A DNA stretch of 64,000 nt from Mustelus asterias (taxonomy: Eukaryota). Shown piece by piece: positions 1,513 to 60,999 of this stretch. The notes beneath the pieces were generated by a model, which was given only the letters and a program-made list of their open reading frames with translations, was not told the DNA's origin and made no database searches. The position numbers and the translations under genes were made by a program. Position 1 is the first letter of the stretch. Each line of letters starts with the position of its first letter. The DNA lies in the NCBI RefSeq assembly GCF_964213995.1, contig NW_027590175.1, positions 806,001 to 870,000 of the forward strand, written 5' to 3'.

Positions 1513-2568
1513 TTATATGTATTTATAGATCCAAATGTGCTGTGTTAACAAAATGGACAGTTGCTAACCGTAATATAAAGCATCATGGGATTTAGCTGAC
1601 TTGACCATATTCCTATAGTTATTCAGTCATTAAAGACACAGTCATGGAGCATTAAACTTGCCTCGCAGGGCCCCTTGTATCAGCACACAGGCAGCTGCTT
1701 TGTGAGACTGCGAGCAGCACAGACAAGTCAGAGATAAGAGTGTCTTGAGAAAAGAGATTCATTGTGAAGGCTCAAAAACAGTTGATATGATGTAAGAATT
1801 CTATGATTCTAATGAACATTCTTTCCTCTCTCATTCCCCAAAAGCTGTAAATCTCCATCCCACACACTCTCCCTCCATTCTCACTCTGCTGTATCTAATA
1901 TTCACCCTCCCAATTCTCCTGAAGGTGCTGATTGAGGCTGATTGACAGATCCATGCTCACTGCTTCCTGTCCACCACACACAAATCATAAGAAACAGGAG
2001 CTGCAGTTGGCCATTCAGCCCATCGAACTGCCTCAACCATTCATTGAGAATTGGCTGATCTACCGCAGAATCATTTCCCACGCTATCCCCCAGATAGAGA
2101 GAGAATAGAGCCAATGTTTTGAGTCTGGAGAGAGGAAAGAATGTTCCATAGAAACTAGAATTGTGTGTTCTGAATTTCTATCCTGCACTGACACTGATGA
2201 TCTCTGTAAACTTGTTTTACAGGATATTGAAAGAGGAATCACAGGCCGAAATTTCAAACGTCACGTCTGGATCTGACAGAGTCATATTCCTTGGGAGCTG
2301 AATATCATCGGCCCTTGAATCTAGAAGGAGAAACAATTGTCCAGTCTGTTGAAAAGAGTTCAAATATCAGTGTGACTGGAAAAGCACCAACACACTGCCA
2401 CACTCGAGTGAGGGTGTTCCAATGCACTGACTGAAGAGCTTTAACCAGTTACACAGCCTGAATAAATATCACACCATTCACAGCGGGGAGAGACTGTACC
2501 CGTGTTCTGTGTGTGGACAAGGCTTCAACTGATTGTCCACCCAAGACAGAGGCAAGGACACCTGCACC

Positions 2569-3411
2569 ATGGAGAAACCATGGAAATGTGGGGACTGTGG
2601 GAAGAGATACAGATCCCCATCAGAACTGGAAGCTCATCGGCGCAGTCACACTGGGGAGAGACCATTCACCTGCTCTCAGTGTGGGAAGGGATTCACTCGG
2701 TTATTCCAGCTGCAGATACACCAGCGAGTTCACACTGGGGAGAGGCCATTCACCTGCTCTCAGTGTGGAAAGGGATTCACTCAGTCATGCACCCTGCAGA
2801 CACACCAGCGAGTTCACACTGGGGAGAGGCCCTTCATCTGCTCTCAGTGTGGGAAGGGATTCAGTCGGTTATCCAATCTTCAGACACACCGACGACTTCA
2901 CGCTGGTGAAAGGCCGTTCACCTGCTCTCAGTGTGGGAAGGGGTTCAGTCAGTTATGTCACCTGCAGACGCATCAGCGAGTTCACACAGGGGAGAGACCA
3001 TTCACCTGCTCTCAGTGTGGGAAGGGGTTCAGTCGGTTATCCAACCTTCAGACACACCAGCGACTTCACTCTGGTGAGAGGCCATTCACCTGCTCTCAGT
3101 GTGAGAAGGGATTCAGTCATTCATCCAATCTGCGCACACACCAGCGAGTTCACACTGGGATGAGGCCATTCACCTGCTCTCAGTGTGGGAAGGGATTCAC
3201 TCGGTCATCCAACCTGCGGGCACATAAGCGCGTTCACACTGGGGAGAGGCCGTTCACCTGCTCTGTGTGTGAGAAGAGGTTCACTTGGTCATCCGTCCTG
3301 CTGAGACACCAGCGAGTTCACACTGGGGACAGACCATTCACCTGCTCTCAGTGTGGGACGGGATTCACAGTTTCATCCCAGCTGCTGAGACACCAACAAG
3401 TTCACGAGTGA
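2569..3411 (+). CDS. C2H2 zinc-finger protein ZNF-1 (10 fingers, no effector domain seen)
   Basis: ATG in ACCATGG context (MEKPWKC), 280 aa of tandem CxxC-x12-HxxxH fingers with TGERPF linkers. Upstream acceptor TTTTACAG at about 2215-2222. Confidence 0.9.
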
Positions 3412-9954: not shown

Positions 9955-10075
9955 TGACGTCAAAGGGCTGCATGGTGACGCCTCACATGCCCGCATTCTG
10001 ACGTCACAGTGCCGGATACTCTGATGTCACAATGTCTGTTGCTCTGACGTCACAATGCGGGATGTTCTGACTCTT
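9955..10075 (+). promoter_or_regulatory. Periodic CRE (TGACGTCA) array upstream of TCR V1
   Basis: TGACGTCA at 9955, 9999 and 10045; variants TGACGCCT 9976, TGATGTCA 10022, TGACTCTT 10068. Spacings are 21, 23, 23, 23, 23 bp. Confidence 0.6.
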
Positions 10076-10282: not shown

Positions 10283-10801
10283 ATGAAGCTCAGCTTCGCT
10301 TCAGTGATCATCTCCCTGGATTTCTTACTCTTCCCTCAGTGTAAGTGTGGTCGCTATTTCTGACAGCTATATTTCACACATTAGCAATGCTACGTTCTGT
10401 TAAATAGTATTCTGTTTTGTTGTGTTATCTTGTATTATGCATTCAATTGTACTTCATTGTGCAACATTGTATTGCACTATGAGATTTTAATTTTATGATA
10501 TTATTGCGTATCTACATATCCTTCCCAGATGCCGCTGGTAGTGAAGAGGTATCACAGTCTCCAGAGTCTGTGGTGGTTACTGAGATAGACCTGGCATCGT
10601 TGAACTGTTCCACTACTGCAGCTGGACTGGTCCTACAATGGTACAGACAATACCCGGACCGAACCGTGCAGCACCTGGTGAGCGGTACCAGCGATCAGGG
10701 CAGGATCAGGGCTCGGAACATTGTTGCAGAGAAACGAAGCGTTCTGAATGTTGGTGGCACTCGGGTGACAGACACTGCTACCTATTTCTGTGCAGTCGAG
10801 G
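10283..10801 (+). CDS. T-cell receptor alpha/delta-type V gene segment V1 (leader exon 10283-10340, V exon 10529-10801), open frame
   Basis: Leader MKLSFASVIISLDFLLFPQ then T|GTAAGT (phase 1); acceptor TTCCCAG|AT; spliced frame YAAGSEEVSQSP..LNC..LQWYRQ..DTATYFCAVE directly followed by an RSS. Confidence 0.9.
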
Positions 10802-10840
10802 CACAGTGTTGTAAAGATCAATACGAGTCGTACAAAAACC
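10802..10840 (+). promoter_or_regulatory. 23-RSS of V1 (perfect consensus)
   Basis: CACAGTG (10802-10808) + 23 nt + ACAAAAACC (10832-10840). Confidence 0.95.
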
Positions 10841-11040
10841 TATAGAGGAGCAGTCCTGACAGTTTGTCGCCTGTGCTTCATCAAAGAGATAGACATTTTA
10901 TAAACTTTATTGTAGTAAATCCAGTGAACAACACAGCCCTCCAAATCTAAGCAAATCATTTCCTTCGCAAGCCGTACCGGGAGATATCAGCAGAAGTAGT
11001 CGTGTTTCATAAGTCATTTGCATCTGTTTGCGATTTTCTG

Positions 11041-11112
11041 GGTTCTGTGGTGTAATGGGTATTACTCTTGACTTTGAATCCAGCGATCTGAGTTCAAATC
11101 TCCGCAGCACCT
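11041..11112 (+). tRNA. tRNA-Gln(TTG)-like, probably a pseudogene
   Basis: GGTTCTGTGGTGTAATGG..GACTTTGAATCCAGCGATCTGAGTTCAAATCTC..ACCT follows the vertebrate tRNA-Gln body. Mismatches in the acceptor, anticodon and T stems; TTTT shortly downstream. Confidence 0.75.
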
Positions 11113-11415
11113 TGCTTTTCTTTGTCAATGCCGATGATTGCTTTGCTGAAGGACATTCCGCTTAAAGTTTTCACCAAGTGCGAATCGAGAGGACAATTTG
11201 CCAGCCTATTCCACTGCTATTGCAATGCACATTGCTGGGCCTCTGTCGACAGATGCCTGCAACATCAGTGTTTCTCTTTTTCATTTTCGCTCCTCTATAA
11301 CGCTCTGTCGATAGAAAGGAGCAGTTGGTGTCAAAGAGCAACAACCCTTATTGACCAAGAATGTGTATGTGTGAGATCTGAGTGAAAGACCTCCTGCCTT
11401 ATACCGGCGCCTGTT

Positions 11416-11487
11416 GGTTTCATGATGTAACGGTGAGCACGTTGGACTTTCAATCCAGCAGTCTGAGTCCGAATCTCGGTGGAACCA
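11416..11487 (+). pseudogene. tRNA-Gln-derived pseudogene with TTC (Glu) anticodon
   Basis: GGTTTCATG..AGCAC.TTGGA CTTTCAA TCCAG..GAGTCCGAATCTCGGTGGAACC: Gln body, anticodon TTC, B-box TTC changed to TCC. Confidence 0.7.
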
Positions 11488-11517
11488 TGATTCTCATCGT
11501 CCCAACTCCTGTTTATC

Positions 11518-11889: not shown

Positions 11890-11928
11890 AGTTTTTGTAC
11901 AGGTTCAGCCCAGCTCTGTGTCTCTGTG
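11890..11928 (-). promoter_or_regulatory. 23-RSS of V2
   Basis: Minus strand CACAGAG (11928-11922) + 23 nt + ACAAAAACT (11898-11890). Confidence 0.9.
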
Positions 11929-12820
11929 GGTCTCCGTGCGCAGTAATACACCCCGAAGTCTGCCAGCTCTGTTTTAGACATTTTCAGCGGGACGGTACGG
12001 GTTGTATCATTGAGCTCTGCTGATAAACGGTCCCCTGGGAATCTCTCTTTGTTCCCGGTGTATTTGCTTCTCCTCAGCAGGTACTCCATGGATCCGCTGG
12101 GATACTGACGGTACCAGAATAGGTAATAATTGCCAGTGCTTGCAGTTGTATAATTACAGAAAAACTGAACATCATCTCCTTCACTCACTGTGACTGCAGC
12201 CGGCATCTGTGAAACTGAATCTCCTCTACATTGTCCTGTAAGAGCCAAGAGTCATGCTAAATTAAACGATGTCAGTTCACTTTGTTTAATGGCCGGATTC
12301 GGCCCGTCACCCTGGCCAGTAATCTGAAAAACGAATCACAGCATCTAAACAGGAATATAAATCCCGCAACACGCAGGTTGTAACGGGGACGTGTTTGTCG
12401 CGGTTAAATGACACTCCGTTAAATGAACACCTCCTGAGGAGATCAGATCCTCGCCTTCGTTTCACGTTATTTGATGGGGAAACTAAACTGTCCGTGGGTT
12501 TTAGATCTCGGGTTTGTCAACGCTTTCATCCAGATTTTATCAAGTTTGTCAAAGTCCCTCAGCGGCTCCGGCGGGGCCTGCAATCCCACCTTAATTCTTC
12601 ACTCTCATTCAGCTGAGGTATTTTGCCTCCTCCCTTGGTGAGACAAAGATGATTCTAATTGATATTAGAATCAATATATATTTTTACCAGTGCGTTAATC
12701 GAACTGCTCAATTGAATGCAGTGAATGGTAAATATGTGAAACGCAGAGTTTGTAACTTGTGAACCTACCGGTTAGTAGAGCTGCAGCTGTGAGGAATAAG
12801 CTCAGAGCCACAGGAGACAT
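11929..12820 (-). CDS. T-cell receptor alpha/delta-type V gene segment V2 (leader exon 12820-12769, V exon 12235-11929), open frame
   Basis: Leader MSPVALSLFLTAAALLT then G|GTAGG; acceptor CTTACAG|GA; GQCRGDSVSQ..FFCNY..YLFWYRQYP..DRLS..DFGVYYCARR, then the RSS. Confidence 0.9.
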
Positions 12821-13949: not shown

Positions 13950-14843
13950 ACTATGTTTCTGCATTTGTTCCTTCAATCAAATTTTCTTCAGTAAAGACAC
14001 GCGCTCCGATAATGAACTTAATGCAATGTCCTTCTGTCCTCTCCTGGTGGCAAAAAAGGACTACAATATGCAACTTTAAAACAACCTGTTTCATTTCTGG
14101 AAGCAAGATTGATTCCAACAACTGCTGATCATTCTCCTCAGTATGAAGTATATTTTTAATTTCTCTTCTTTTTGATTGCGCCTGGTGGTATTCACATCTG
14201 AGAAAGTACCTGCACCAGTGTTCAACTGGTTTCCAACACTGTGAAATTTGGACGCAGGACTAAACGGCAGCTTTGCTTAGTTGCAGCCTAAAGTTGGTTA
14301 ACACAATGATTTTTTTAAAATGTCGGGTTGCGCAGAAATCGGTTTTGGCAAACTGCTTGATCATCACCATCAATTGGGTATTTTGTCAGAATTAACACTG
14401 GCTATGTTTCATGATGTTAGATCCAGTTTCCACTATTCCCCCCAACCCGCATCTTGTATTAGAAATAGATTTTATGTCATCCATTCTACTTCTACCTGAA
14501 CTCCTGAAGATAGAGGTGGAGTGACACAGTGATCCGCTCTAAAAGGATTGTTGGAACATCGGATGATCAATGAGTTGCAACAATGAAAATCGGATTTAAT
14601 ACCACCAGGCGCAATCAAAAAGAAGAGAAATTGAAAATATACTTCATACTGAGGAGAATGTATGATCAGCAGTTGTTGGAATCAATCTTGATTCCAAAAA
14701 TGAAACAGGTTGTTTTCAAGTTGTATATTGTAGTGCTTTTTTCCACCAGGAGAGGGCAGAAAGGCACTGCATTAAGTTCATTATCGGAGCGCGTGTTTTT
14801 ATTGAAGAAATTTTGATTGAAGGAACAAATCCAGAAACATAGT
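13950..14843. repeat. Inverted repeat, about 245-bp arms (13950-14192 and 14598-14843) with about 405-bp spacer
   Basis: The arms are reverse complements with scattered mismatches, e.g. TTTGATTGCGCCTGGTGGTATT / AATACCACCAGGCGCAATCAAA. Confidence 0.9.
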
Positions 14844-15414
14844 GTTAACACTGATAACAAACTTATTATTTTTTGAAATATTCTTATGAATTGTCAATGT
14901 TGCCACTCCTGTAGTTATGTAACATACATTCGATGGCTAGACCAGTTCCCATTGCACAAGTTCCCAAATTATCGAACGATATTTTAGGACTAACATCAGG
15001 ACCTTCTTCTTGTCAGACCGGGACTGGTCACAGTGTGGAATGAAACTTCAGAAAGAACGAGAGAGCAAAATGCACTACAATCGTTGGATCGTAGAACAAA
15101 AGGAAACTTGTAAGCTCTCCCGCAATAAAAGAGCTATAACACGAAGGAGGAAACAGCTGTTCTCATTTATAACTATCTTGTGAACTGCAACTTGTCGAAG
15201 ATCCAAGTGAAGAATTGCACCCTGGAATTACCAGTATTCACCAGTAGAGAGCAGTGTGTCGCGTGAGAAATATTTAATCTGAGCGTGTCAGGTGTGTACT
15301 CAGAGGCTGTGTGGGCCTGTGTCAGTGTGAAACACTCAGTATGGGTGGCTAAAGTAGAACCCGCCTAATGTTGTCAGTTCAACATAAACACGGCACTGAA
15401 CTGAACCCGAAGGT

Positions 15415-17460
15415 TCAGGTATGTCCCTGTCAGGCAAGGAGGAATTGGTAGGGCTAGGGAACCGTGGTGCACCAAAAAAGTTTCTTTGTTGGTTAAAAAG
15501 AAAAAGGAGGCTTATGTTCGGATGAGACGTGAGCACTCGGGTAGTGCACTAGAAAGCTTTAGATTGGCTAAGAGGGAGTTGAAGAGCGAGCTTAGAAGGG
15601 CTAAAAGGGGACATGAGAAGACTTTGGCGGATAGGGTTAAAGAGAATCCTAAGGCGTTCTATAGGTATGTCAAGAACAGAAGGTTGGTTAGGGCAAGTTA
15701 GGGCCAGTTATAGATGGCAGAGGGAAGTTATGTGTGGAACCGGAGGAGATTGGTGAAGCATTGAACCAATATTTCTCTTCGGTGTTCACGCAAGGGGACA
15801 TGAATATAGCTGAGGAGGACACTGGGTTGCAAGGGAGTAGAATAGACAGTATTACAGTTGATAAGGAGGATGTGCAGGATATTCTGGAGGGTCTGAAAAT
15901 AGATAAATCCCCTGGTCCGGATGGGATTTATCCAAGGATTCTCTGGGAGGCAAGAGAAGTGATTGCAGAGCCTCTGGCTCTGATCTTCAGGTCGTCGTTG
16001 GCCTCTGGTATAGTACCAGAAGATTGGAGGTTAGCGAATGTTGTCCCATTGTTTAAGAAGGGGAACAGAGACTTCCCCGGGAATTATAGACCGGTGAGTC
16101 TCACTTCTGTTGTCGGCAAGATGTTGGAAAAAATTATAAGGGATAGGATTTATAGTTATTTGGAGAGTAATGAATTGATAGGTGATAGTCAGCATGGTTT
16201 TGTGGCAGGTAGGTCGTGCCTTACTAACCTTATTGAGTTTTTTGAGAAAGTGACCAAGGAGGTGGATGGGGGCAAGGCAGTGGACGTGGTATATATGGAT
16301 TTTAGTAAGGCGTTTGATAAGGTTCACCATGGTAGGCTTCTGCAGAAAATGCAGATGTATGGGATTGGGGGTGATCTAGGAAATTGGATCAGGAATTGGC
16401 TAGCGGATAGGAAACAGAGGGTGGTGGTTGATAGTAAATATTCATCATGGAGTGCGGTTACAAGTGGTGTACCTCAGGGATCTGTTTTGGGGCCACTGCT
16501 GTTTGTAATATTTATTAATGATCTGGATGAGGGTATAGTTGGGTGGATTAGCAAATTTGCTGATGACACCAAAGTCGGTGGTGTGGTAGACAGTGAGGAA
16601 GGGTGTCGTAGTTTGCAGGAAGACTTAGACAGGTTGCAAAGTTGGGCCGAGAGGTGGCGGATGGAGTTTAATGCGGAGAAGTGTGAGGTAATTCACTTTG
16701 GTAGGAATAACAGATGTGTTGAGTATAGGGCTAACGGGAGGACTTTGAATAGTGTGGAGGAGCAGAGGGATCTAGGTGTATGTGTGCATAGATCCCTGAA
16801 AGTTGGGAATCAAGTAGATAAGGTTGTTAAGAAGGCATATGGTGTCTTGGCGTTTATTGGTAGGGGGATTGAATTTAGGAGTCGTAGCGTTATGTTGCAA
16901 CTGTACACAACTCTGGTGCGGCCGCACTTGGAGTACTGTGTGCAGTTCTGGTCCCCACATTACAGGAAGGATGTGGAGGCTTTGGAGAGGGTGCAGAGGA
17001 GGTTTACCAGGATGTTGCCTGGTATGGAGGGGAGATCCTATGAGGAGAGGCTGAGGGATTTGGGATTGTTTTCGCTGGAAAGGCGGCGGCTAAGAGGGGA
17101 TCTTATTGAAACATATAAGATGATTAGAGGTTTAGATAGGGTGGATAGTGATAGCCTTTTTCCTCTGATGGAGAAATCCAGCACGAGGGGGCATGGCTTT
17201 AAATTGAGGGGGGGTAGTTATAGAACCGATGTCAGGGGTAGGTTCTTTACCCAGAGGGTGGTGAGGGATTGGAATGCCCTGCCAGCATCAGTAGTAAATG
17301 CGCCTAGTTTGGGGGCGTTTAAGAGATCCGTAGATAGGTTCATGGACGAAAAGAAATTGGTTTAGGTTGGAGGGTCACAGTTTTTTTTTTAACTGGTCGG
17401 TGCAACATCGTGGGCCGAAGGGCCTGTTCTGCGCTGTAATGTTCTATGTTCTATGTTCTA
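15415..17460 (+). mobile_element. CR1/HER1-like LINE, 5'-truncated, with uninterrupted RT ORF (15734-17365)
   Basis: 543-aa ORF with [26 protein letters not shown] and FADD; 3' (ATGTTCT)n tail at about 17439-17460. Confidence 0.95.
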
Positions 17461-17531
17461 AAATACTTGGTTCCGGGTTAATTTTCATCTCCTGGTTCAA
17501 AGCTGACCTCGGTGTTGTGTGTGAACTGAGA

Positions 17532-17864
17532 ATGGTCAGGATTTGCATCGACGTTTTGTTGTTTTTCACTCTGATCTGCACGGGGATGACCGGAGAAGCT
17601 GAGTTGCTGCAGCTCCCTCCACGGATGGTTATCAGTGAAGCGAGAAAGATATCCATGAACTGCACTATTTCCATTACGTTTGACACCGTGCGTTGGTATA
17701 AACAGCTCCCGAATCAGTCGCCCCAGCATCTGGTGATGGCCACAAGCGGAACCGATCAACACGGGAGGATCACTGCTTCGATCGGAGAAGGCAACAAACT
17801 CAGCATCCTGACTGTGAGAGACGTACAGGTTTCAGACACTGCCACCTATTTCTGCACCATGAGG
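17532..17864 (+). CDS. T-cell receptor alpha/delta-type V gene segment V3, leader and V in one exon
   Basis: MVRICIDVLLFFTLICTGMTG-EAELLQLP..MNC..VRWYKQLP..SDTATYFCTMR is continuous with no intron; followed by an RSS; resembles V1. Confidence 0.85.
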
Positions 17865-17903
17865 CACACTGTAATCAACACAGGCAGGTCCCGTACCAAA
17901 ACC
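17865..17903 (+). promoter_or_regulatory. 23-RSS of V3
   Basis: CACACTG (17865-17871) + 23 nt + ACCAAAACC (17895-17903). Confidence 0.85.
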
Positions 17904-18524
17904 TGCACCGTTTTCAAAAACCGCTCCGCAGAAATATCAGTGTTTCAACAAGCGCGGTATTAAATTCCAATCGTAAGGGGGGTGAGAGCAAAACATTTCT
18001 TGAATCAGAAAATTTTAAAAAGCTTAAAATGAAGAGAGTTGGGAATGTATTCAAAGAAAATGGAAGAGGTTACATGCAAGTCAGAATGAAAGGAAGACAA
18101 AGCGAAAAAGTGCAGTAAGAATACGTAAAGAGCTCAAAAAATCCGGAAGCAATGCAAAGAAGAAAGTCAAAAATAGCGACTGTGATGTGATGCATTTTGG
18201 CAGGAAAGAAGCGTATTAAATAAAAGGTGCGAGATTGCAGAAGTCTGAGATGCAAAGGGATTTGCCTGTCCTCGTGCGTGAATCACAAATGTTCTCTTAC
18301 AGGTACAGCAAGAAATGAGAATATTGTCGTTCAGCTCAGTTGCTGGATATCTGGTTAGTGATGCAAAGCATCAATATCTGTACCCGGTGAGGTCATTCAT
18401 GAAGCTGCCGCCATCTCAACCTCGACCGCTCTCCTGAGGCGATGTGCGATCCTCAGGTTAAATCGCCTCCAGCCTCTGCGGCTATGGCGACTTTGCCTTT
18501 ATTGCCACCGTCTCACGGCGTGAG

Positions 18525-23120: not shown

Positions 23121-24303
23121 TGTTTTTTATGGATTTTTAAACGGCCATCCATTTCTCTGTTTCACCTCTGCCCTCCCTGATCAGCTCTCTGCCATTGTCT
23201 ACCTTCCTCTGCCTCTAATAATGGGTGTATTTTAACTATTATTTCCGCAAGCTATGTCTTGATGAGGTTTTTACCACTTCACAACTCTGTTCACTGCTGA
23301 TTTACCAGCTTAGTCTTACAATGTTCAGGAATTGTTTCTCTTCCACTGGAGATCATTTCCCTTCCACTTCTGAGCTTATATTGACCAACAAAATCTGGTA
23401 CATTTTTATTCCCTGTAATTCATTCTGCCCACCCTGAAACGTTAATCTTCTTTCTGTCTAAAAGGATGGTCTCTTTCCTCATGTTCACAATTAAAGGGCA
23501 GGAGATGGCTGACATTTAAGGGGACAGTAAATTAATATAGGACAGAGATATGTCTAGTGTTATTATATGGTACCCAGATTAGATAATTATGTTTCTGTAA
23601 TAAAATACATTTATTATTTCTTGCATTGTAATCTAATATTGTAGCGATGTTATACATTTCCAGTCATAAAGTCATTACAGCACAGAAGGAATCCATTTGG
23701 TAACTCGAGTCCATGCTGACTCTCTGTATAACATTCTAGTCCCATCCCCACTCTATATCCCCATTCTCCTGAAAGTTTATTTCCTTCAAGTGCCCACCCA
23801 CTTTCATTTTTAAATAGAATCCATGGATATGGATGGAGAGTTACAGCTTTTTGGGACTGAAATAGGAAAGAATGTTCCATAGAAACTAGAATTGTCTGTT
23901 CTGAATTTCTATCCTGTTCTGACACTGATGACTTTTGTAAACTTGTTTTACAGGATATTGAAAGAGGAAACACAGGCCAAAATCTCAAACGTCACGTCAG
24001 ATCTGACAGAGTCATATTCCTTGGGAGCTGAATATCATCGGCCTTTGAATCTAGAAGGAGAAATTGTTGTCCAGTCTGTCAATTTGAAAAGATTGCAAGT
24101 GTCAGTGTGACTGGAAAAGCATCAACACACTGCCACACTCAAGTGAGAGTCTTCCAGTGCACTGACTAAAGAGCTTTAACCAGTTACACAGCCTGAATAA
24201 ATATCACATCATTCACAGCGGGGAGAGACTGTACCCGTGTTCTGTGTGTGGACGAGGCTTCAACTGATTGTCCACCCAAGACAGAGGCAAGGACACCTGC
24301 ACC

Positions 24304-25398
24304 ATGGAGAAACCATGGAAATGTGCAGACTGTGGGAAGAGATACAGATACCCATCAGTGCTGGAAGCTCATCGGCGCAACCACACTGGGGAGAGACCAT
24401 TCACGTGCTCTCAGTGTGGGAAGGGATTCACTCAGTCATTCAGCCTGCAGTCACACAAGCAAGTTCACGCTGGGGAGAGACCGTTCACCTGCTCTCAGTG
24501 TGGGAAGGGATTCACTCACTCATCCCACCTGCGGAGGCACCAGCGAGTTCACACGAGGGAGAGATCGTTCACGTGTTCTCAGTGTGGGGAGGGATTCACT
24601 CAGTCATCCAGCCTGCACACACACCGGCGAGTTCACACTGGGGAGAGGCTGTTCAGCTGCTCTCAGTGTGGGGAGGGATTCACTTGTTCATCCAACCTGT
24701 GGACACACCAGCGAGTTCACACTGGGGAGAGGCTGTTCAGCTGCACTCGGTGTGGGGAGGGATTCACTTGTTTATCCACCCTGCAGACACACCAGCGAGT
24801 TCACACTGGGGAGAGGCCATTCAACTGCTCTCAGTGTGGGAAGGGATTCACTTGTTCATCCAACCTGCGGAGGCACCAGCGAGTTCACACTGGGGAGAGG
24901 CCATTCACCTGTTGTCAGTGTGGGAAGGGATTCATTCAGTTATCCGATCTGCAGACACACCAGCGAGTGCACACTGGGGAGAGACCGTTCACCTGTTCTC
25001 AGTGTGGGAAGGGTTTCACTCGGTTTTCTGACCTGCGGGCACACCAGCGAGTTCATACTGGGGAGAGGCCATTTATCTGCTCCGAGTGTGGGATGGGATT
25101 TACTCAGTCATTCAACCTGCTAAAACACCAGCGAAGTCACACTGGAGAGAGGCCATTCACTTGCTCCAGTTGTGGGAAGGGATTTATTGATTCATCCAGC
25201 CTGCTGAGACACCAGCGAGTTCACACCGGGGAGAGACCATTCACCTGCTCTGATTGTGGCAAGGGATTCAGTCAATCATCCAACCTGGTAAAGCACCAGC
25301 GAATTCACACTGGGGACAGGCCATTCACCTGCTCCGTGTGTGGGAAGGGATTCACTCAGTCACCTCACCTGCTGAAACACCATCATGTTCACGAGTGA
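24304..25398 (+). CDS. C2H2 zinc-finger protein ZNF-2 (13 fingers)
   Basis: MEKPWKC start, 364 aa of tandem fingers; acceptor TTTTACAG near 23945-23952. Confidence 0.9.
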
Positions 25399-31392: not shown

Positions 31393-32316
31393 TCACTGGT
31401 GAACTTGTTGATGTCTCAGGAGCCATTGTGACTGAGTGAATCCCTTCCCACACACAGAGCAGTTGAATGGCCTCTTAGTGTGAGTGCGTTGGTGAGCCAG
31501 CAGGTTGAAAGACTTTGCGAATCCCTTCCCACACACGGAGCAAGTGAATGGCCTCTCCCCTGTGTGAACCCGCTGGTGAGCAGAGAGGTTGGATGGCCGA
31601 TTGAATCCCTTCCCGCACACGGAGCATGTGAATGGTCTTTCTGCAGTGTGAGTGCGTCGGTGAGCAGTGAGGTTGGATGACTGCCTGAAATTCTTTCCAC
31701 AGTCAGTGCAGCTGAATGGCTTCTCTTCAGTGTGAATTTTCTGGTGTCTCAGCAGGGTGGGTAAAACTGTGAATCCCTTTCCACACACAAAGCAAGTAAA
31801 CGGTCTCTCCCCAGTGTGAATTCGCTGGTGTGCAATGAGGGAGGATGCCTGTCTGAAACTCCATCCACAGTCAGGGCAGCTGAATGGCTTCTCCTCAATG
31901 TGAACTCGCTGGTGTGACAGTAAGTGGGATGACCCAGTGAATCCCTTCCCACAGTCGGAGCAGGTGAACGGCCTCTCCCCAGTATGAACTCGCTGGTGTG
32001 ACAGCAGGTGGAATGACTGACTGAATCCCTTCCCACACACGGAGCAGATGAATGGTTTCTCCCTGGTGTGACTGCGTTGGTGCACAGTGAGTGCTGAAGA
32101 ATGCCTGAACCTCTTCGCACAGGAGGTGCACATGAATGGCTTTTCCTCAGTGTGAATTCTCTGGTGAGACCAAAGGCCCGATGACTGAATGAATCCCTCC
32201 CCACAGACAGAACAGGTGAACGGTCTCTCACCAGTGTGACTGCGCCGATGATTTTCCAGCAGGGAAGGGTAACTGAATCCTTTCCCACAGTCCCCACATT
32301 TCCACGGTTTCTCCAT
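31393..32316 (-). CDS. C2H2 zinc-finger protein ZNF-3 (11 fingers)
   Basis: 307-aa ORF starting [14 protein letters not shown]. Confidence 0.9.
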   Translation of the reverse strand: MEKPWKCGDCGKGFSYPSLLENHRRSHTGERPFTCSVCGEGFIQSSGLWSHQRIHTEEKPFMCTSCAKRFRHSSALTVHQRSHTREKPFICSVCGKGFSQSFHLLSHQRVHTGERPFTCSDCGKGFTGSSHLLSHQRVHIEEKPFSCPDCGWSFRQASSLIAHQRIHTGERPFTCFVCGKGFTVLPTLLRHQKIHTEEKPFSCTDCGKNFRQSSNLTAHRRTHTAERPFTCSVCGKGFNRPSNLSAHQRVHTGERPFTCSVCGKGFAKSFNLLAHQRTHTKRPFNCSVCGKGFTQSQWLLRHQQVHQ

Positions 32317-32874
32317 GATACTGGTGTCCTTATGTTTCTCCAGCTTTAACGATCAGTTGAAGCCTCATCCACACACAGAACACGTGTATAGTTTCTCCTC
32401 GCTGTGAATGCTGTGATGTTATTTCAGGCTGTGTAACTGGATAAAGCTCTTTCCACAGTCAACTCACTGAAACACTCTCACTCGGGTGTGCATGTATCTT
32501 GGTGCTTTTTCAGTCACACTGATGTTTGAAATCTTCTCCTCCAGACAGAAGACAAACATTTCTCCTTCCACGTTCAAAGTCTGAGGATATTTAAGTCCAA
32601 GTGAATCGAGACTCTGTCTGATTTTGATGTGATGTTTCTTCACCTCACCTGTAAAAGGAGTTTACAAAATTAATCACTGTCAGTCCAGGATAGAAATTTT
32701 GAACAGGCAATTCTAATTCTCTGGAAAATTTCTTCCTCTCTTGTTCCCCAAATCAATAAATTCCTGTCCCACAAACTCTCCCTCCTCCCTGGGCTGAAAT
32801 CCAAACCCATCTCACCATTTCTTTTCTCCACTCCCAGTTTGCTCCCTCCCTCTCCTCTGTCTGGGTTCAGTTCT

Positions 32875-35453: not shown

Positions 35454-37462
35454 AAAACACTTTCTTTTCTCCCCCTTTCCATTTATTTTCTCATTCTGGG
35501 GGAAATTGGGGACTTGCAGCAACTGAAGGGAAAGGAAGTGAATCCAGGGAGGCTGCAGACTCTGGAAAGGTTGGCCCAGGTTTCTCTCTCTCTCAAACCA
35601 GAAAATGATCCGTTTCTGCCCACTGTTTGCTGTTAGCCAACCTTCTATCCACGCCAATATGTCATCCCCACAGCATGAATTTTTATTTGCTGCAATAACC
35701 TTTGATGTGGCACCTCATCAAATGTCTTCTGGAAATCTAAGTACAGCGCATCCACCGGTTTCCCTTTATCCAATTCCCGATGGGGAATTTTAGAAAATTG
35801 AACAACACACCAACTATCTCACTCTGTTAAGACCCGAGAATGAAGCCCAGCAGGACCCGAGGACTCATCAGCCCACAGCTCCAACAGTTTGCTGAGGACC
35901 ACTTCCCTGGGAATTGTGCTTTTTCAGAGTTCATCCCACACTTCTGTTTTCTGATTTCCAGCTGTTTCTGAGTTTTAACTGTATCCTCTATTGTGAACAC
36001 CGAGGCAAAATACTTGTTCAATTCATCTCCCAGCTCCTTATTTTTCATTATCAATTCCTGGACTCACTTTCTATTAGACAGTTAAGAAATGAGGTGGAGC
36101 AAGTGACTGAAGTGTCAGTCAGGGAGCACTATTGGGAGCACCAATAGTTTCAAAATAGTTCTGGAAAAAGATAGGACAGGTCCACAGGTCAAGGCCCTAA
36201 ACTGGAGCAGGGCCACTTTTGTGGGCATTAGGCAGGATCTAGCAGATGTCGATTAGGTGAGTTCCTTTGAAGGGAAAGGAATGACTGGCAAATGGGAGGT
36301 TTTAAAAGTGTGATATCAAGAGTCCAGGGGCAGTATATTCCTGTTAAGATGAAGGGAAAGAATGGTAAATTTAGGGATCTCTGGCAGACAAGGGACATTG
36401 AGGCTCTGGTCAGGTAAAAGAAGGAAGCATACATTGGGTTTAGGCAATCGGGGACAAGTGAATCACTCTGACTATAAAAAGTGTAAGAAAATACTGAAGA
36501 GGGAAATCAGGAGGACAAAAAGAGGGTCTGATATGGATCTGGCAGGTAAGATTAAAGAAAATTCCAAGAGGTTCTATAGATATATTAAACGTAAACGGGT
36601 GGCTCGAGAGAGAATAGATCCCCTTAAAAATCAGTCTGGCCATCTGTGTGTGGAGCCACAGGAGATGGGTGAGATTTTTAATGAATACTTCTCCTCTGTG
36701 TTTACTGCGGAGAGCACCATGGGTGCTAAAGAAATAAGGGAAACAAGTGGTGATGTCTTGGGCACACGCATGTTACTTGGGAGGAGGTATCTGCAGCCTT
36801 ATAAAAGCAAATTACTGCGGATGCTGGAATCTGAAACCAAGAGAGAAAATGCTGGAAAATCTCAGCAGGTCTGGCAGCATCTGTAAGGAGAGAAAAGAGC
36901 TGATGTTTCTTGTCCAGATGACCCTTTGTCAAAGCTCTGAAACATCTCCATACAGATGCTGCCAGACCTGCTGAGAATGGGGAGAGAGTGTGTGGGATGG
37001 AGATTTACAGCTTTTGGGGAATGAGAGAGGAAAGAATGTTCCATAGAAATTGTCTGTTCTGAATTTCTACCCTGTACTGACACTGATGACTTTTGGAAAC
37101 ACATTTTACAGGATATTGAAAGAGGAATCACAGGCCGAAATCTCAAACATCACGTCTAGGCGTGACAGAATCATTTTCCTTGGGACCTCAATATCATCGG
37201 ACTTTGAATCCAGAAGGAGAAATGATTGTCCAGTCTGTCAATTTGAAAATATTTGAAATGTCAGTGTGAGTGAAAAAGCATCAACACACTGCTACACTCG
37301 AGTGAGTGTGTTCCACTGCACTGACTAAAGAGCTTTAACCAGTTACACAGTCTGAATAAATATCACACCATTCACAGCGGGTAGAGACTGTAATCTTGTT
37401 CTGTGTGTGGACGAAGTTTCAACTAATTGTTCACTCAAGAGAGCGGTAAGGACTCCTGCACC

Positions 37463-38053
37463 ATGGAGAAACCATGGAAATGTGTGGACTGTGGGAAGAG
37501 ATACAGAGCCCCATATAAGCTGGAAGCCCATCGGCGCAGCCACACTGGGGAGAGGCCGTTCACCTGCTCTCAATGTGGGAAAGGATTCAGTCAGTTATCC
37601 GACCTGCAGAGACACCAGCGAGTTCACACTGGGGAGAGGCCATTCACCTGCTCTCAATGTGGGAAGGGATTCAGTCAGTTATCCGACCTGCAGAGACACC
37701 AGCAAGTTCACACTGGGGAGAGGCCATTCACATGTTCCCAGTGTGGGAAGGGATTCGCTCAGTCATCCAACCTGCTGACACATGAACGAGTTCACACTGG
37801 GGAGAGACCATTCACCTGCTCTCAGTGTGGGAAGGGATTCACTCAGTTATCCCACCTGCAGTCACACCAGCGAGTTCACACTGGGGAGAAACCATTCACC
37901 TGTTCTCAGTGTGGGAAGGGGTTCACTCGGTCATCTGACCTGCGGACACACCAGCGAGTTCACACTGGGGAGAGGCCGTTCACCTGCTCTCAGTGTGGGA
38001 AGGGATTCAGAGTTTCATCCCGGCTGCTGAGACACCAGCAAGTTCACGAGTGA
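37463..38053 (+). CDS. C2H2 zinc-finger protein ZNF-4 (7 fingers)
   Basis: MEKPWKC start, 196 aa. Confidence 0.9.
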
Positions 38054-46798: not shown

Positions 46799-47641
46799 TC
46801 ACTTGTGAACTCGCTGGTGTCTCCGCAGGCTGGATGACTGAGTGAATCCCTTCCCACACACACAGCAGGTGAACGGCCTCCCCCCAGTGTGAACTCGCTG
46901 GTGTTCCTGCAGGTTGGATGATGATCTAAATCTCTTTGTGCAGTGAGAGCAGCTGAACGGTCTCTCCTCAGTGTGAATGCGCTGGTGGATCATCAGATCC
47001 CCAGAACGTTTGAAACTACTTCCACAGTCAGAGCATTTAAAGGGTCTCTCCTGGGTGTGAGTGAGATTGTGACTCAGCAGGCTGGATGAATGAGTGAATC
47101 CCTTCCCACACACAGAGCAGGTGAACGGTCTCTCCCTGGTGTGAATTCGCTGGTGCTCCCGCAGGTGAGATAACGTTCTAAATGTCTTTGTGCAGTGAGA
47201 GCAGCTGAACGGTCTCTCCCCAGTGTGAATCCGCTGGTGGATCGTCAGTTCCCGAGAGCTTTTGAAACCACTTCCACAGTCAGAGCATTTAAAGGGTCTC
47301 TCATTGCTGTGAGTGGCTTTGTGTTTTGACAGATTGGATAACTGCATAAATCCTTTCCCACACACCAAGCAGGTGAATGGTCTCTCCCCAGTGTGAACGC
47401 GCTGGTGTCTCTGCAGATCGGGTAAATGAGCGAATCCGTTCCCACACTCAAAGCAGATGAACGCTCTTTCTCCAGTGTGAACCAGTCGATGTCACTGCAG
47501 ATGATATAACCGAGTGAATCCCTTCCCACACACAGAACAGGTGTGCGGCTTCTCTCCAGTGTGAATACGTCGATGAATTTGCAGCTCAGAGGGGGTTTTG
47601 CAATCCTTCCCACAGTCCCCACATTTCCACGGTTTCTCCAT
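46799..47641 (-). pseudogene. C2H2 ZNF-5 (10 fingers) with a single in-frame TGA in finger 2
   Basis: ATG 47641 (MEKPWKC) is in frame with ORF 46799-47368; CTG CAG TGA CAT at 47494-47492. Confidence 0.75.
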
Positions 47642-50119: not shown

Positions 50120-50794
50120 TCACTTGTGAACTTGCTGGTGTCTCAGCAGCCGGGATGAAACGCTGAAACCCTTCCCACACTGAGAGCAGGTGTATGGCCT
50201 CTCTCCAGTGTGAACTCGCTGGTGTGCCTGCAGCTCGGATGGCTGAGTGAATCCCTTCCCACACTGAGAGCAAGTGAACGGCCTCTCCCCAGTGTGAATT
50301 CGCTGGTGTGCCCGCAGGGTGGATAACTGAGTGAATCCCTTCCCACACTGAGGGCAGGTGTATGGCCTCTCCCCAGTGTAAACTCGCTGGTGTGTCTGCA
50401 GGCTGGATAACTGAGTGAATCCCTTCCCACACTGAGAGCAGGTGAACGGCCTCTCTCCAGTGTGAACTCGCTGGTGTGTCTGCAGGCTGGATGACCGAGT
50501 GAATCCCTTCCCACACTGAGAGCAGGTGAACGGCCTCTCCCCAGTGTGAACTCGCTGGTGTGACTGCAGGTGGGATGACTGAGTGAATCCCTTCCCACAT
50601 TGAGAGCAGGTGAATGGTCTCTCCCCAGTGTGAACTCGTTGGTGAATCCGTAAGCTGGAGAACTGATTAAATCCCTTCTCACACCGAGAGCAGATGAACA
50701 CCTTCTCCCCAGTGTGGCTGCGCCGATGAGCTTCCAGCAGACATGGGGCTCTGTATCCCTTCCCACAGTCCGCACATTTCCATGGTTTCTCCAT
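50120..50794 (-). CDS. C2H2 zinc-finger protein ZNF-6 (8 fingers)
   Basis: MEKPWKC start, 224 aa; paralogue of ZNF-4. Confidence 0.9.
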
Positions 50795-52399
50795 GGTGCA
50801 GGTGTCTTTGCCTCTCTCTTGGGTGGACAATTAGTTGAAACTTCGTCCACACACAGAACAAGATTACAGTCTCTACCCGCTGTGAATGTTGTGATATTTG
50901 TTCAGACTGTGTAACTGGTTAAAGCTCTTTAGTCAGTGCATTGGAACACTCTCACTCGAGTGTGGCAGTGTGTTGATGCTTTTTCACTCACACTGACATT
51001 TCAAATCTTTTCAAATTGACAGACTGGACAATCATTTCTCCTTCTGGATTCAAAGTCCGATGATATTGAAGTCCCAAGGAATATGACTCTGTCACGTCTA
51101 GACGTGACGTTTGAGATTTCGACCTGTGATTCCTCTTTCAATATCCTGTAAAATGAGTTTACAAAAGTCATCAGTGTCAGTACAGGATAGAAATTCAGAA
51201 CAGACAATTTCTATGGAACATTCTTTCCTCTCTCATTCCCCAAAAGCTGGAAATCTCCATCCCACACACTCTCTCCCCATTCTCAGCAGGTCTGGCAGCA
51301 TCTGTATGGAGAGAAAAGAACTGATGTTTCAGAGCTTTGACAAAGGGTAATCGAGACAAGAAACATCAGCTCTTTTCTCTCCTTACAGATGCTGCCAGAC
51401 CTGCTGAGATTTTCCAGCATTTTCTCTCTTGGTTTCAGATTCCAGCATCCGCAGTAATTTGATTTTATAAGGCTGCAGATACCTCCTCCCAAGTAACATG
51501 CGTGTGCCCAAGACATCACCACTTGTTTCCCTTATTTCTTTCGCACCCATGGTGCTCTCCTTGGTAAACACAGAGGAGAAGTATTCATTAAAAATCTCAC
51601 CCATCTCCTGTGGCTCCACACACAGATGGCCATACTGATTTTTAAGGGGATCTATTCTCTCTCTAGCCACCCTTTTACTCTTAATATAGCTATAGAAACT
51701 CTTGGAATTTTCTTTAATCTTACCTGCCAGATCCATATCAGACCCTCTTTTTGTCCTCCTGATTTCCCTCTTCAGTATTTTCTTACACTTTTTATAATCA
51801 GAGTGATTCACTTGTCCCTGATTGCCTAAACCCAATGTCTGCTTCCTTCTTTTACCTGACCAGAGCCTCAATGTCCCTTGTCTGCCAGAGATCCTTAAAT
51901 TTACCATTCTTTCCCTGCATCTTAACAGGAATATACTGCCCCTGGATTCTTGATATCACACTTTTAAAACCTCCCATTTGCCAGTCATTCCTTTCCCTTC
52001 AAACAAACTCACCTCATCGACATCTGCTCAATCCTGCCTCATGCCCACAAAAGTGGCCCTGCTCCAGTTTAGGGCCTGGACCTGTCCTATCTTTTTCCAG
52101 AACTATTTTGAAACTATTGGTGCTCCCAATAGTGCTCCCTGACTGACACTTCAGTCACTTGCTCGACCTAATTTCTTAACTGTCTAATAGAAAGTGAGTC
52201 CAGGAATTGATGATGAAAAATAAGGAGCTGGGAGATGAATTGAACAAGTATTTTGCCTCGGTGTTCACAATAGAGGATACAGTTAAAACTCAGAAACAGC
52301 TGGAAATCAGAAAACAGAAGTGTGGGATGAACTCTGAAAAAGCACAATTCCCAGGGAAGTGGTCCTCAGCAAACTGTTGGAGCTGTGGGCTGATGAGTC

Positions 52400-54485: not shown

Positions 54486-55621
54486 ATGGAGAAACCATGG
54501 AAATGTGGGACAGGATTCAATTACCCATCTGAATTGGAAACCCATCGACATATTCACACTGGGGAGAGACCATTCACCTGCTGTGTGTGTGGGAAGGGAT
54601 TCACTCAGTCATCCAGCCTGTACACACACCAGCATGTCCATACTGGTGAGAGGCCATTCATCTGTCTTCAATGTGGAAAGGGATTTAATGCTTTATCAAA
54701 CCTCCGGACTCACCACCAGGTTCACTCTGATCAGAGACCTTTTAATGTTGTGAGTGTGGGAAGAGCTTTAAAAGCAGAAAGGATTTGTTGATTCACCAAC
54801 GCACTCACACTGGGGAGAGGCCTTTCATCTGCTCCGTGTGTGGGAATGGATTCACTCAGTCATCCCACCTCCTGACACACCAAAGTGTTCACACTGATCA
54901 GAGACCATTTCAATGTTCTGACTGTGAGAAGAACTTTAAAAGTAAAAAGGATTTATTGATTCATCAGCACACTCACACTGGGGAGAGGCCGTTCATCTGC
55001 TCCGTGTGTGGGAAGGGATTCACTTGTTCATCCCAGCTCCTGAAACATCGATTTGTTCACACTGATCAGAGACCTATCAATTGTTCTGAATGTGATAAAA
55101 CATTTAAAAGCAAAAAGGATCTTCTGAAACACCAGCACACTCACACTGGGGAGAGACCATTCATCTGCTCTCTCTGTGGGAAGGGATTCACTCGATTAGC
55201 TCACCTTCTGAGACACCATCGAGTTCACACTGGGGAGAGGCCATTCACCTGCCCTGTGTGTTGTCAGGAATTCATTGATGCATCTGACCTTCTGATACAC
55301 CGGCGAGTTCACACTGGAGAGAGACCTTACACTTGCCTCCTGTGCGGCAAGAGATTCACTCAGTCATCCCACCTGACTACACACCAACTTGTTCACACTG
55401 ACCAGAGACCTTTTGAGTGTTCTGATTGTGAGAAGAGATTTAAAAGTAAACAGAATCTGCTGAAACACCAGCGAGTTCACACTGGGGAAAGGCCGTTCAA
55501 CTGCTCCATGTGTGGGAAGGGATTCGCTCAGTCAAACAACCTGCTGAAACAGCAAGTTCACAGGCAACAGCAAGGGTTGGATTCTGCTGTTATTGCTGCT
55601 GTTCATCACACCCAGGACTGA
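54486..55621 (+). pseudogene. C2H2 ZNF-7, disrupted
   Basis: First finger partly deleted (KCGTGF), frameshift near 54745, last finger lacks a His; a CR1 tail fragment (about 54359-54484) is inserted at the start codon. Confidence 0.75.
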
Positions 55622-59249: not shown

Positions 59250-60180
59250 TCACTTGTGAACCCGCTGATGTCTGAGCAGGTGGGATGACTGAGTGAATCC
59301 CTTCCCACACACAGAGCAGGTAAATGGTCTCTCCCCAGTGTGAACTCGCTGGTGTGTCAGCAGGTTGGATGACCGATTGAATCCCTTCCCACACTGAGAG
59401 CAGATAAATGGCTTCTCCCCAGTGTGAACCCGCTGGTGTTTCAGCAGGGTAGATAACTCACAGAATCCCATCTCACACTCTGAGCAGATGAAAGGCCTCT
59501 CCCTGTCCCTGCTGTGAATTTGCTGATGTCTCAGCAGGTTGGTTAACTGAGTGAATCCCTTCCCACAATTGGAGCAGGTGAACGGCCTCTCCCCAGTGTG
59601 AACTCGTTGGTGTGTCAGCAGGGTGGAGGAATCTCCGAATCTTCCCACACACGGAGCAGATGAACGGCCTCTCTCCAGTGTGAACTCGCTGATGTGCCAG
59701 CAGGTCAGATGAATCTCTGAATCCTTTCCCACACTCTGAGCAGGTGAATGGTCTCTCCCCAGTGTGAACTCGATGGTGCCTCTGCAGACTGGATGACCGA
59801 GTGAATCTCTTCCCACAGTCAGAGCAGATGAAGTGCCTCTCCTTGGTGTGAACTTGTTGGTGTACCAGTAGGGTGGATGAATCTCTGCATCTTTTCCCAC
59901 ACACTGAGCAGCTGAATGGTCTCATCCCTGTGTGAACTCGATGGTGTCTCACTAGGTTGGATGAAATACTGAATTTCTTCCCGCACACACAGCAGGTGAA
60001 TGGCCTCTCCCTGCTGTGAACTCGCTGGTGTGTAAGCAGGTCGGATGCATTAGTAAATCTCTTCCCACACTGAGAGCAGGTGAATGGTCTTTCCCCGGTG
60101 TGACTGCGTCGATGAATTTCCAACTCAGATGGGGATCTGAATCCCTTTCCACAATCCTCACATTTCCACGGTTTCCCCAT
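59250..60180 (-). pseudogene. C2H2 ZNF-8 (about 11 fingers), frameshifted near 59640
   Basis: ORF 59473-60180 gives six intact fingers and then leaves the finger frame; the fingers resume in ORF 59250-59900. Confidence 0.75.
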
Positions 60181-60999
60181 GGTGTTGGTGTCTGTGTCTC
60201 GGTGCTTTTCCAGTCACAGGAATGGTAAAATGGGCGATGGTTTACCTCATCCTATTAAATCGAGTGACTCTGTCAGATCTTGGTGTGAAGTTTGGTTTGA
60301 GATTTCTTATGGCAAGTTTTTCCCTTTTAATATCCTGTAAAAGAAGTTTGCAAATGTCATCACTGTCAGTTCAGCTCAGAAATTCAGAACAGACAACCAG
60401 TCACTGATGGGATACATTCTGCCACATGGATAATTATAGATTGTAACATTGTCATTAAAACATGTGATACCAAAGCCACAGCAATGTGGTTGAATCTTAA
60501 GTGCCCACCAAGGGCAACTAGAGATGGGCAAGAAATGCTGGCCAACCAGCGACGTCCATGTCCCACAAATGAATACAAAAGTGATTGAGTGTAAATAATT
60601 TACATTTAAAAATGTCTTCTGTCAACGGTGTAAATGCTCATTTATAAATTTATATATGTATATATTTACATATTTATAAATGCTCATTTTGTCATTGATT
60701 TCCTGAAGCTCCTGTTTTGAGTTTCAGACAGTTCTATGCCAAGTGTTTGAGGTGATTAAAAGTCTTTCATCTTACTCTTTGCATATTGATGTTCACTAAA
60801 GCTACACAGATTGATTTTCTTCTCATTATAAATATATTTTCAATACCGAAAAGGACAGTCTTTCAACAATCCCCATTTTCCTTCTTTCTGGTTGATAATT
60901 AAGGGTCTGTACACTTGGCTTTATTTATGATTTTGTTCCTAATTTTATCGGTTTCCCCACCCGCCACAATCTCCACAACACAGCAAAAATAATCACTAT

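What the first reader, a model, noticed from the sequence alone, without database searches (positions are those of the whole stretch)
17532..17903. Intronless leader-V segment that still has its RSS
Seen: a hydrophobic signal-like peptide MVRICIDVLLFFTLICTGMTG runs directly into the V domain. There is no AG at the usual phase-1 acceptor position, and I saw no separate leader exon before the upstream CR1 (15240-15415). Its relative V1 has a normal 188-bp leader intron. A retrocopy of rearranged mRNA would have lost the RSS, so intron loss plus an intact 23-RSS points to reverse transcription of a spliced germline (sterile) V transcript, cDNA conversion, or an old single-exon V family. A CR1 3' end lies only about 70 bp upstream and may have displaced or replaced the promoter.
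Basis: partly seen in the sequence, partly recalled or inferred. Interest (0 to 1): 0.7.

Follow-up and report, generated by a model that had tools for sequence, protein, structure and literature searches.

The report
Intronless shark T-cell receptor V copy
This T-cell receptor gene segment, likely from a shark, carries its predicted signal peptide and variable domain in one unbroken exon, as do dozens of relatives that likely descend from one old loss of the usual intron (a layout already known in chickens), and this copy alone has a jumping-gene insertion just before its start that likely impairs it.

Summary
17532-17864 is one frame (leader plus V-set domain), with a 23-RSS at 17865-17903, no acceptor at the usual site and no upstream leader exon.

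It is not a one-off retrocopy: 66 of 150 scored genome matches cover leader and V in one piece (59 without stops), including a 12-copy array about 1 Mb from a TCR-alpha-type J cluster. They form one clade, with a bamboo-shark protein, beside V1's spliced family.

The CR1-type element (15413-17459) is young and private to this copy: 29 paralogs show the empty site. It therefore came after intron loss. No J or TCR constant exon lies in the 117 kb downstream, so this copy is likely impaired.

The origin is unresolved. I favour precise loss through a cDNA (canonical register, A-rich tract behind the RSS), about 0.55, over acceptor death with the intron end recruited as leader, about 0.35 (the junction scores intron-like). 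Expression was not shown.

Chicken TRAV1 has the same layout. This scan has already noted the family on other DNA of this genome and in other genomes. Extra: one subfamily captured a dead V gene's promoter region.

The parts
17532..17594 (+). Predicted signal peptide, 21 codons. First 52 nt (17532-17583) sit where leader exon 1 would be; last 11 nt are the usual second leader part. No intron between them.
17595..17864 (+). TCR alpha/delta-type V region with Cys (17661), Trp (17694) and second Cys (17853), open frame
17865..17903 (+). 23-RSS: heptamer CACACTG (C at position 5 in 19 of 61 other RSSs), nonamer ACCAAAACC (C at position 3 in 1 of 61 other RSSs)
15413..17459 (+). 5'-truncated CR1-type LINE (family label recalled from the tail repeat; Pfam says RVT_1), 2047 nt, sense-oriented, no target-site duplication, 99.5-99.8% identical to copies elsewhere, private to this V copy; its tail adds an in-frame ATG at 17439 and out-of-frame ATGs at 17446 and 17453
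17460..17531 (+). 72 nt of the family's 5' flank left between the insertion and the ATG
14198..15412 (+). Family 5' flank (promoter presumed, not mapped) pushed 2047 nt upstream; block 15150-15412 lies 72 nt before the ATG position in 29 paralogs
17987..18186 (+). A-rich tract (A 0.48) shared by all three subfamilies and found only beside family members; possible decayed poly(A)
10283..10840 (+). Neighbour V1: exon 1 10283-10340, 188-nt intron, V exon, consensus 23-RSS 10802-10840; its family is the spliced sister group
11890..12820 (-). Neighbour V2: spliced V segment of another family (533-nt intron), 23-RSS from 11928 downward; ends computed from the exon and intron lengths

Best explanation
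This is one copy of a large family of T-cell receptor alpha/delta variable segments whose predicted signal peptide and variable domain lie in a single exon ahead of a recombination signal, a family that likely arose once, long ago, by precise loss of the leader intron, likely through a DNA copy of a spliced unrearranged transcript. Shown: the single-exon layout in every family copy inspected, one clade, the RSS, and the private young CR1-type insertion. Inferred: intact copies would join J or D segments through the 23-RSS and make a chain whose leader needs no splicing. This copy was carried, with V1 and V2, into a duplicated immunoglobulin/zinc-finger region. It then took the insertion, which separates the ATG from its conserved 5' flank and adds upstream ATGs. 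It is probably little used or silent.
For: Family: 66 of 150 scored matches span residue <=9 to >=108 in one piece at 55-100% identity, 59 without a stop (lower bound, may include assembly duplicates). Leader and V are in one frame in 30 of 30 fetched loci, 29 with ATG. In 17 of 17 further copies whose leader aligned, the distance from the ATG position to the junction is 52 nt with no intron; 4 of the 21 loci were fragments or V1-family. One clade of 25 copies plus 2 outside proteins, SH-aLRT 98 in a quick tree; sister set includes V1's family (99). The outside proteins are a Chiloscyllium punctatum model with the same leader type and an unnamed JGI/IMG protein that reads on through the RSS. 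For precise loss: the junction falls on the canonical codon; 52 nt is also the exon-1 length of a spliced family here, which likewise ends in Thr-Gly codons; no ATG-led relic exon in 0 of 30 loci. An A-rich tract 100-350 nt behind the RSS has A 0.48 in the window, 0.48 and 0.52 in two subfamilies; the highest of 11 spliced families is 0.42, and background is 30 of 2872 tiles. It matches only beside family members, 34 of 34 and 6 of 6 rows. CR1 late: empty site in 29 paralogs and in contigs of 3 of 4 public runs; 150 of 150 scored copies are 100% identical over 90 aa. No J or TCR C in C143:786001-941194, and none of 68 J-pattern hits is on C143.
Against: The last 8 nt before the junction score like an intron end (+7.5 bits for this subfamily; leave-one-family-out accuracy 8 of 10 introns, 9 of 10 exons). 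24 of 56 spliced V segments, including 8 of 8 of the sister family, already have an in-frame ATG in an open intron end. No DNA homology links the leader or its flank to any spliced family's exon 1. The A-rich tract is only half A, with runs of at most 7, and was already complex in the common ancestor; in the tandem array it is cut short (mean 0.39 for that group). Leader dN/dS is 0.56-1.40 between groups, so there is no clear purifying signal; V region 0.34-0.80. No transcript or rearranged chain was seen. The effect of the insertion is untested, and it could lie in a 5' UTR intron.
Confidence: 0.55

Rival explanations
1. The family is real, but its leader is the old intron's 3' end. The acceptor AG mutated, an in-frame ATG in the pyrimidine-rich intron end took over as start of a hydrophobic peptide, and the true exon 1 decayed. 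No reverse transcription is needed.
For: The junction reads ACGG, ACTG or ACCG in most copies, one change from ACAG, the intron end seen in 8 of 11 spliced families; it scores intron-like. 34 of 56 intron ends are open in frame for 17 codons and 11 of 56 are as hydrophobic as a leader. A donor-like GTGGG/GTAGA lies 196-232 nt before the junction in two subfamilies.
Against: No alignment to the sister family's intron: mean z -0.13 to 0.05; no nhmmer hit. The one exon-1 family ending in Thr-Gly also scores intron-like (+3.5), so the classifier can be fooled by this very ending. It does not explain the A-rich tract. The only real relic exon 1 found belongs to another V gene fused on later.
Confidence: 0.35
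2. The family is transcribed rarely or not at all, or uses an unseen upstream exon, and the leader-like frame is incidental. The copies multiply only by segmental duplication.
For: No expression data seen. Leader dN/dS is near 1. Several close paralogs have weakened RSSs or a lost ATG. Chicken TRAV1 makes up under 10% of splenic alpha chains despite 36 functional or open genes (PMC10972964, passages).
Against: 59 of 66 full-length matches have no stop. The leader keeps 52 nt in 17 of 17 copies while the flank just upstream has 12-20-nt indels. No acceptor exists for an upstream exon. The leader type is kept in two outside proteins.
Confidence: 0.08
3. This single gene is a recent retrocopy made or delivered by the adjacent CR1.
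For: The CR1 is young and adjacent.
Against: Paralogs 98.6% identical over 9 kb lack the CR1 yet are also intronless. Family members diverge down to 55% protein identity.
Confidence: 0.02

Closest known systems
Chicken TRAV1 (V-alpha-1) and most TRGV1 single-exon-leader V genes (PMC10972964; passages read; it credits Gobel 1994 and Parra and Miller 2012, not held)
   Same: Multi-member germline TCR V family with leader and V in one exon, RSS kept, rearranging; 45 of 48 TRAV1 genes are built so.
   Different: Cartilaginous-fish lineage; different leader and FR1 (no QVQQ motif). A bird QVQQ-type V falls elsewhere in the tree, but one clade is not rejected (AU p 0.46). No family copy inspected here keeps the intron.
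Marsupial TRMVj (PMC2275272 and PMC6170632; passages read)
   Same: TCR V lacking the leader intron; retrotransposition proposed.
   Different: TRMVj is pre-joined V-D-J. This segment is unrearranged, keeps a 23-RSS and has dozens of copies.
Scattered TCR alpha/delta V exons of the elasmobranch antigen-receptor complex (PMC12227049; abstract, section 6 and passages read)
   Same: TCR-type V exons lying between IgH clusters on the IgH/TCR alpha-delta linkage group; IgH constant exons lie 10-13 kb upstream of this window.
   Different: That paper calls the split leader canonical for all antigen-receptor genes and, in the parts read, mentions no single-exon V family.

Membership tests
TCR alpha/delta V segment | V-set domain with both Cys and the conserved Trp in one open frame | tested here: met
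   PF07686 over cut-off; TCR alpha chains among the top natural PDB sequence matches, with antibody constructs scoring similarly
TCR alpha/delta V segment | 3' RSS with 23-nt spacer | tested here: met
   17865-17903, one mismatch in each element
TCR alpha/delta V segment | Leader split by a phase-1 intron | tested here: not met
   0 of 21 family copies versus 56 of 57 others have the acceptor; chicken TRAV1 is a published exception, so this does not exclude membership
TCR alpha/delta V segment | Linked to alpha/delta J and C segments | tested here: inconclusive
   Family array lies about 0.95 Mb from 29 J segments and a C-like exon on C71; none found near this copy in C143:786001-941194; C143 is a short contig and may continue
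TCR alpha/delta V segment | Rearranged and expressed | not testable with these tools
   No RNA holder listed; no rearranged chain of this family among 150 protein hits
Chicken TRAV1 (as orthologue) | Leader and V in one exon with RSS | tested here: met
Chicken TRAV1 (as orthologue) | QVQQ motif at the V start and common clade | tested here: inconclusive
   Motif absent (ELLQ). One curlew QVQQ-type V used as stand-in groups apart; AU p 0.46
Processed retrocopy | Intron removed at its exact site | tested here: inconclusive
   Register fits, but acceptor death fits too; no exon-1 homologue found
Processed retrocopy | Poly(A) remnant 3' of the transcript end | tested here: inconclusive
   Family-specific A-rich tract, about 50% A
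Processed retrocopy | Target-site duplication around the V unit | not tested
   The ends of the ancestral unit are not defined
Germline-joined V(D)J (TRMVj type) | V fused to D/J with the RSS gone | tested here: not met
   RSS present, no J motif
CR1-type LINE | Reverse-transcriptase ORF, short tandem-repeat 3' tail, 5' truncation | tested here: met
   RVT_1; same repeat tail in 6 of 6 other copies; 557-aa frame versus up to 964-1005 aa elsewhere. The name CR1 is recalled, not from a repeat library

The most novel reading that the evidence does not exclude
An unrearranged, spliced V transcript was reverse-transcribed into the germ line of an early shark with its RSS and poly(A) tail and founded a working, rearranging TCR V family. 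Retroposition would then have created recombining gene segments. The unit has since also swapped promoters by fusing into the front half of a dead V gene.
Probability: 0.3. Interest if true: 0.6.

Novelty: new member of a known kind. Interest (0 to 1): 0.32.

Why it matters
The split leader is treated as near-universal in antigen-receptor genes, and V-finding tools that demand a splice acceptor would miss or mislabel this family. A second, probably independent, lineage with the chicken layout gives a natural test of what the leader intron does for V usage. If the cDNA origin holds, it shows lymphocyte-type germline transcripts entering the germ line and yielding recombining segments. This particular copy is ordinary: a dispersed duplicate hit by a young LINE.

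Tried and rejected
- Word-seeded protein searches found nothing; the HMMER search did.
- Run search: no RNA holder listed. The 4 runs laid are contigs of unrecorded kind. No listed piece bridges the filled insertion site; tables are cut, so this says nothing on polymorphism.
- Metagenome scan: one partial 27-residue match, not used.
- AlphaFold on a 10-row alignment: pLDDT 37, meaningless, no fold search.
- DNA search with the CR1 end returned nothing because common words are skipped.
- Homology of the leader or flank to exon 1 or intron of 9-11 spliced families: nothing above controls. A donor-like motif resembling V1's exon-1 end was followed up and not supported.
- Idea that all subfamilies sit in the same dead host gene: rejected, p 0.12-0.94 for 8 copies versus p<0.002 for the two chimeric ones.
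- CRE/TATA scan was uninformative: many spliced families also lack CRE.
- Supplements: PMC10322711 file 15 part 1 gives coordinates only; PMC5931798 file 1 part 1 gives junctions only. Neither could place this family. Files 12-14 and 16-19 of the first were not searched or read.
- Five papers were not held: Parra and Miller 2012, Deiss 2019, Ott 2021, Criscitiello 2010, Gobel 1994. They may bear on novelty.
- Ten literature searches listed no paper describing a single-exon V family in sharks.
- The careful tree did not finish; quick trees were used.

Full report
Observation. The frame from 17532 encodes a 21-residue hydrophobic leader and a V-set domain, and ends at a 23-RSS. The window holds three V segments and zinc-finger ORFs, but no J or constant exon. 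V1 and V2 are spliced, with introns of 188 and 533 nt. At the codon where 56 of 57 other V segments have a CAG/TAG acceptor, this gene reads ACGG. No leader exon lies upstream.

It is a family. The window is G000:C143:806001-870000. Of 150 scored matches (1329 candidates), 66 cover leader and V in one piece at 55-100% identity and 59 of these have no stop; some may be assembly duplicates. All 30 loci fetched have the one-frame layout. So do 17 of 17 further copies whose leader aligned, each with 52 nt to the junction. Twelve copies form a tandem array on C71, about 0.95 Mb from 29 J segments followed by a constant-type exon; others are mixed with spliced V segments in dense arrays on C232 and C1506. 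In quick trees the family is one clade (support 98-99), and the set around it includes V1's spliced family. The clade holds a Chiloscyllium punctatum gene model with the same kind of leader (exon structure not seen). It also holds an unnamed JGI/IMG protein that runs from leader through V into RSS sequence, which suggests the layout exists in another species. The organism is inferred to be a shark from these relatives and from the IgH clusters.

The CR1-type element. Paralogs read straight from window 15412 to 17460; the block upstream lies 72 nt before the ATG position in 29 of 36 matches. The other 7 are the window itself, one inverted piece and five partial, diverged matches. The C90 paralog is 98.6% identical over 9 kb and lacks the 2047 nt. 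The element is 99.5-99.8% identical to six copies on another contig, and 150 of 150 scored copies match its last 90 residues exactly. It is thus younger than the intron loss and not its cause. It moves the conserved flank 2 kb away and adds ATGs at 17439 (in frame, 31 extra residues), 17446 and 17453. The nonamer carries a change seen in 1 of 61 other RSSs. IgH constant exons lie just upstream of the window, and no J or TCR constant exon was found to the contig end, whereas the C90 copy faces a D-J-C cluster 70-90 kb away. The V1-V2 and V3 parts are 90-97% identical to pieces of the dense arrays. I infer a dispersed duplicate, probably impaired; this is untested.

How the intron was lost. Two routes fit. 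For precise loss: the junction is in the canonical register, the 52-nt length and Thr-Gly ending match one spliced family's exon 1, and no coding exon-1 relic is seen. All three subfamilies also share an A-rich tract 100-350 nt behind the RSS that none of 11 spliced families reaches and that matches only beside family members. That tract is weak evidence: half A, short runs. For acceptor death: the junction is one base from the commonest acceptor and scores intron-like in a small classifier, and 24 of 56 spliced V segments already hold an in-frame ATG in an open intron end. Direct homology tests favour neither. I put precise loss at about 0.55 and acceptor death at about 0.35. dN/dS gives mild constraint on the V region and none detectable on the leader.

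A chimeric subfamily. Six copies (three loci aligned, one of them a further, broken copy) carry upstream the CRE/CCAAT region, a leader exon with a dead ATG, a roughly 157-nt intron and the first 78 nt of the V exon of another, broken, spliced V family. These are fused 24 nt before the usual ATG position at a 16-nt near-match between the two genes. This is a later promoter swap; the other subfamilies show no such homology. It does not settle the origin, but it shows the single-exon unit can move under another V promoter with its frame open.

Comparison. Chicken TRAV1 has the same layout in 45 of 48 genes, rearranges, and is under-used in spleen (PMC10972964, passages; found, read). A bird V of that type does not group with this family, though the test has little power. 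Marsupial TRMVj lacks the intron but is pre-joined (PMC2275272, PMC6170632, passages). TCR-type V exons between IgH clusters are described for elasmobranchs (PMC12227049, section 6). PMC5278385, PMC5931798 and PMC10322711 (passages, abstract of the last, one supplement part each for the last two) added nothing on leader structure. Ten searches listed no paper on a shark single-exon V family, but five relevant papers were not held. Earlier notes of this scan report the same family elsewhere in this genome and in other genomes. They are leads, not support; their claim of expression in a related shark was not checked here.

Verdict. Real, but a member of a family whose layout is known from chicken: new member of a known kind, interest 0.32.

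Noticed in passing
L132, L134, L141 (G000:C124:606000-606950 +, C436:199650-200600 +, C123:876250-877200 -): Chimeric subfamily: promoter region, dead leader exon, intron and FR1 of a broken spliced V family fused 24 nt before the single-exon ORF at a 16-nt near-match; L132 and L134 keep open frames and RSSs.
   Followed up: yes
window 11040-11113 and 11415-11488: tRNA-Gln(TTG) and tRNA-Glu(TTC) genes sit between the facing 23-RSSs of V1 and V2; the same pair is in the paralogs on C232 and C90.
   Followed up: partly
window 9957-10053: V1's upstream region has four to five CRE-like TGACGTCA repeats about 23 nt apart, shared by its whole family.
   Followed up: partly
L123-L125 (G000:C90:1084700-1109600, - strand): Small V-D-J-J-J-C cluster of TCR delta type far from the main J cluster; like J motifs recur on about a dozen contigs.
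   Followed up: partly
L037-L040 (G000:C71:19363800-19397250): Twelve-copy tandem array of the single-exon V, about 2.46 kb per unit, differing mainly in CDR1; one copy has lost its heptamer.
   Followed up: partly
L075-L077, L094, L104 (family with EWSHQ leader end): A spliced V family whose intron end already encodes an in-frame ATG and a strongly hydrophobic stretch (hydropathy 3.89, 5 of 5 copies): a possible second, unspliced leader.
   Followed up: no
L118 (G000:C143:919098-919403): A second member of the single-exon family on the same contig, with a stop and a damaged RSS.
   Followed up: partly
L142 (G000:C14:97891531-97891692): A 3' fragment of this V family, with RSS-like end, on an unrelated large contig.
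   Followed up: no
L112-L113 (G000:C143:792900-796700): IgH-type constant exons 10-13 kb upstream of the window; isotype not determined.
   Followed up: no
window 2462-3408, 24197-25395, 31396-32352, 37427-38050, 46802-47491, 50123-50901, 54746-55618, 59476-60213: C2H2 zinc-finger-like ORFs on both strands surround the three V segments (label from the repeated motif).
   Followed up: no
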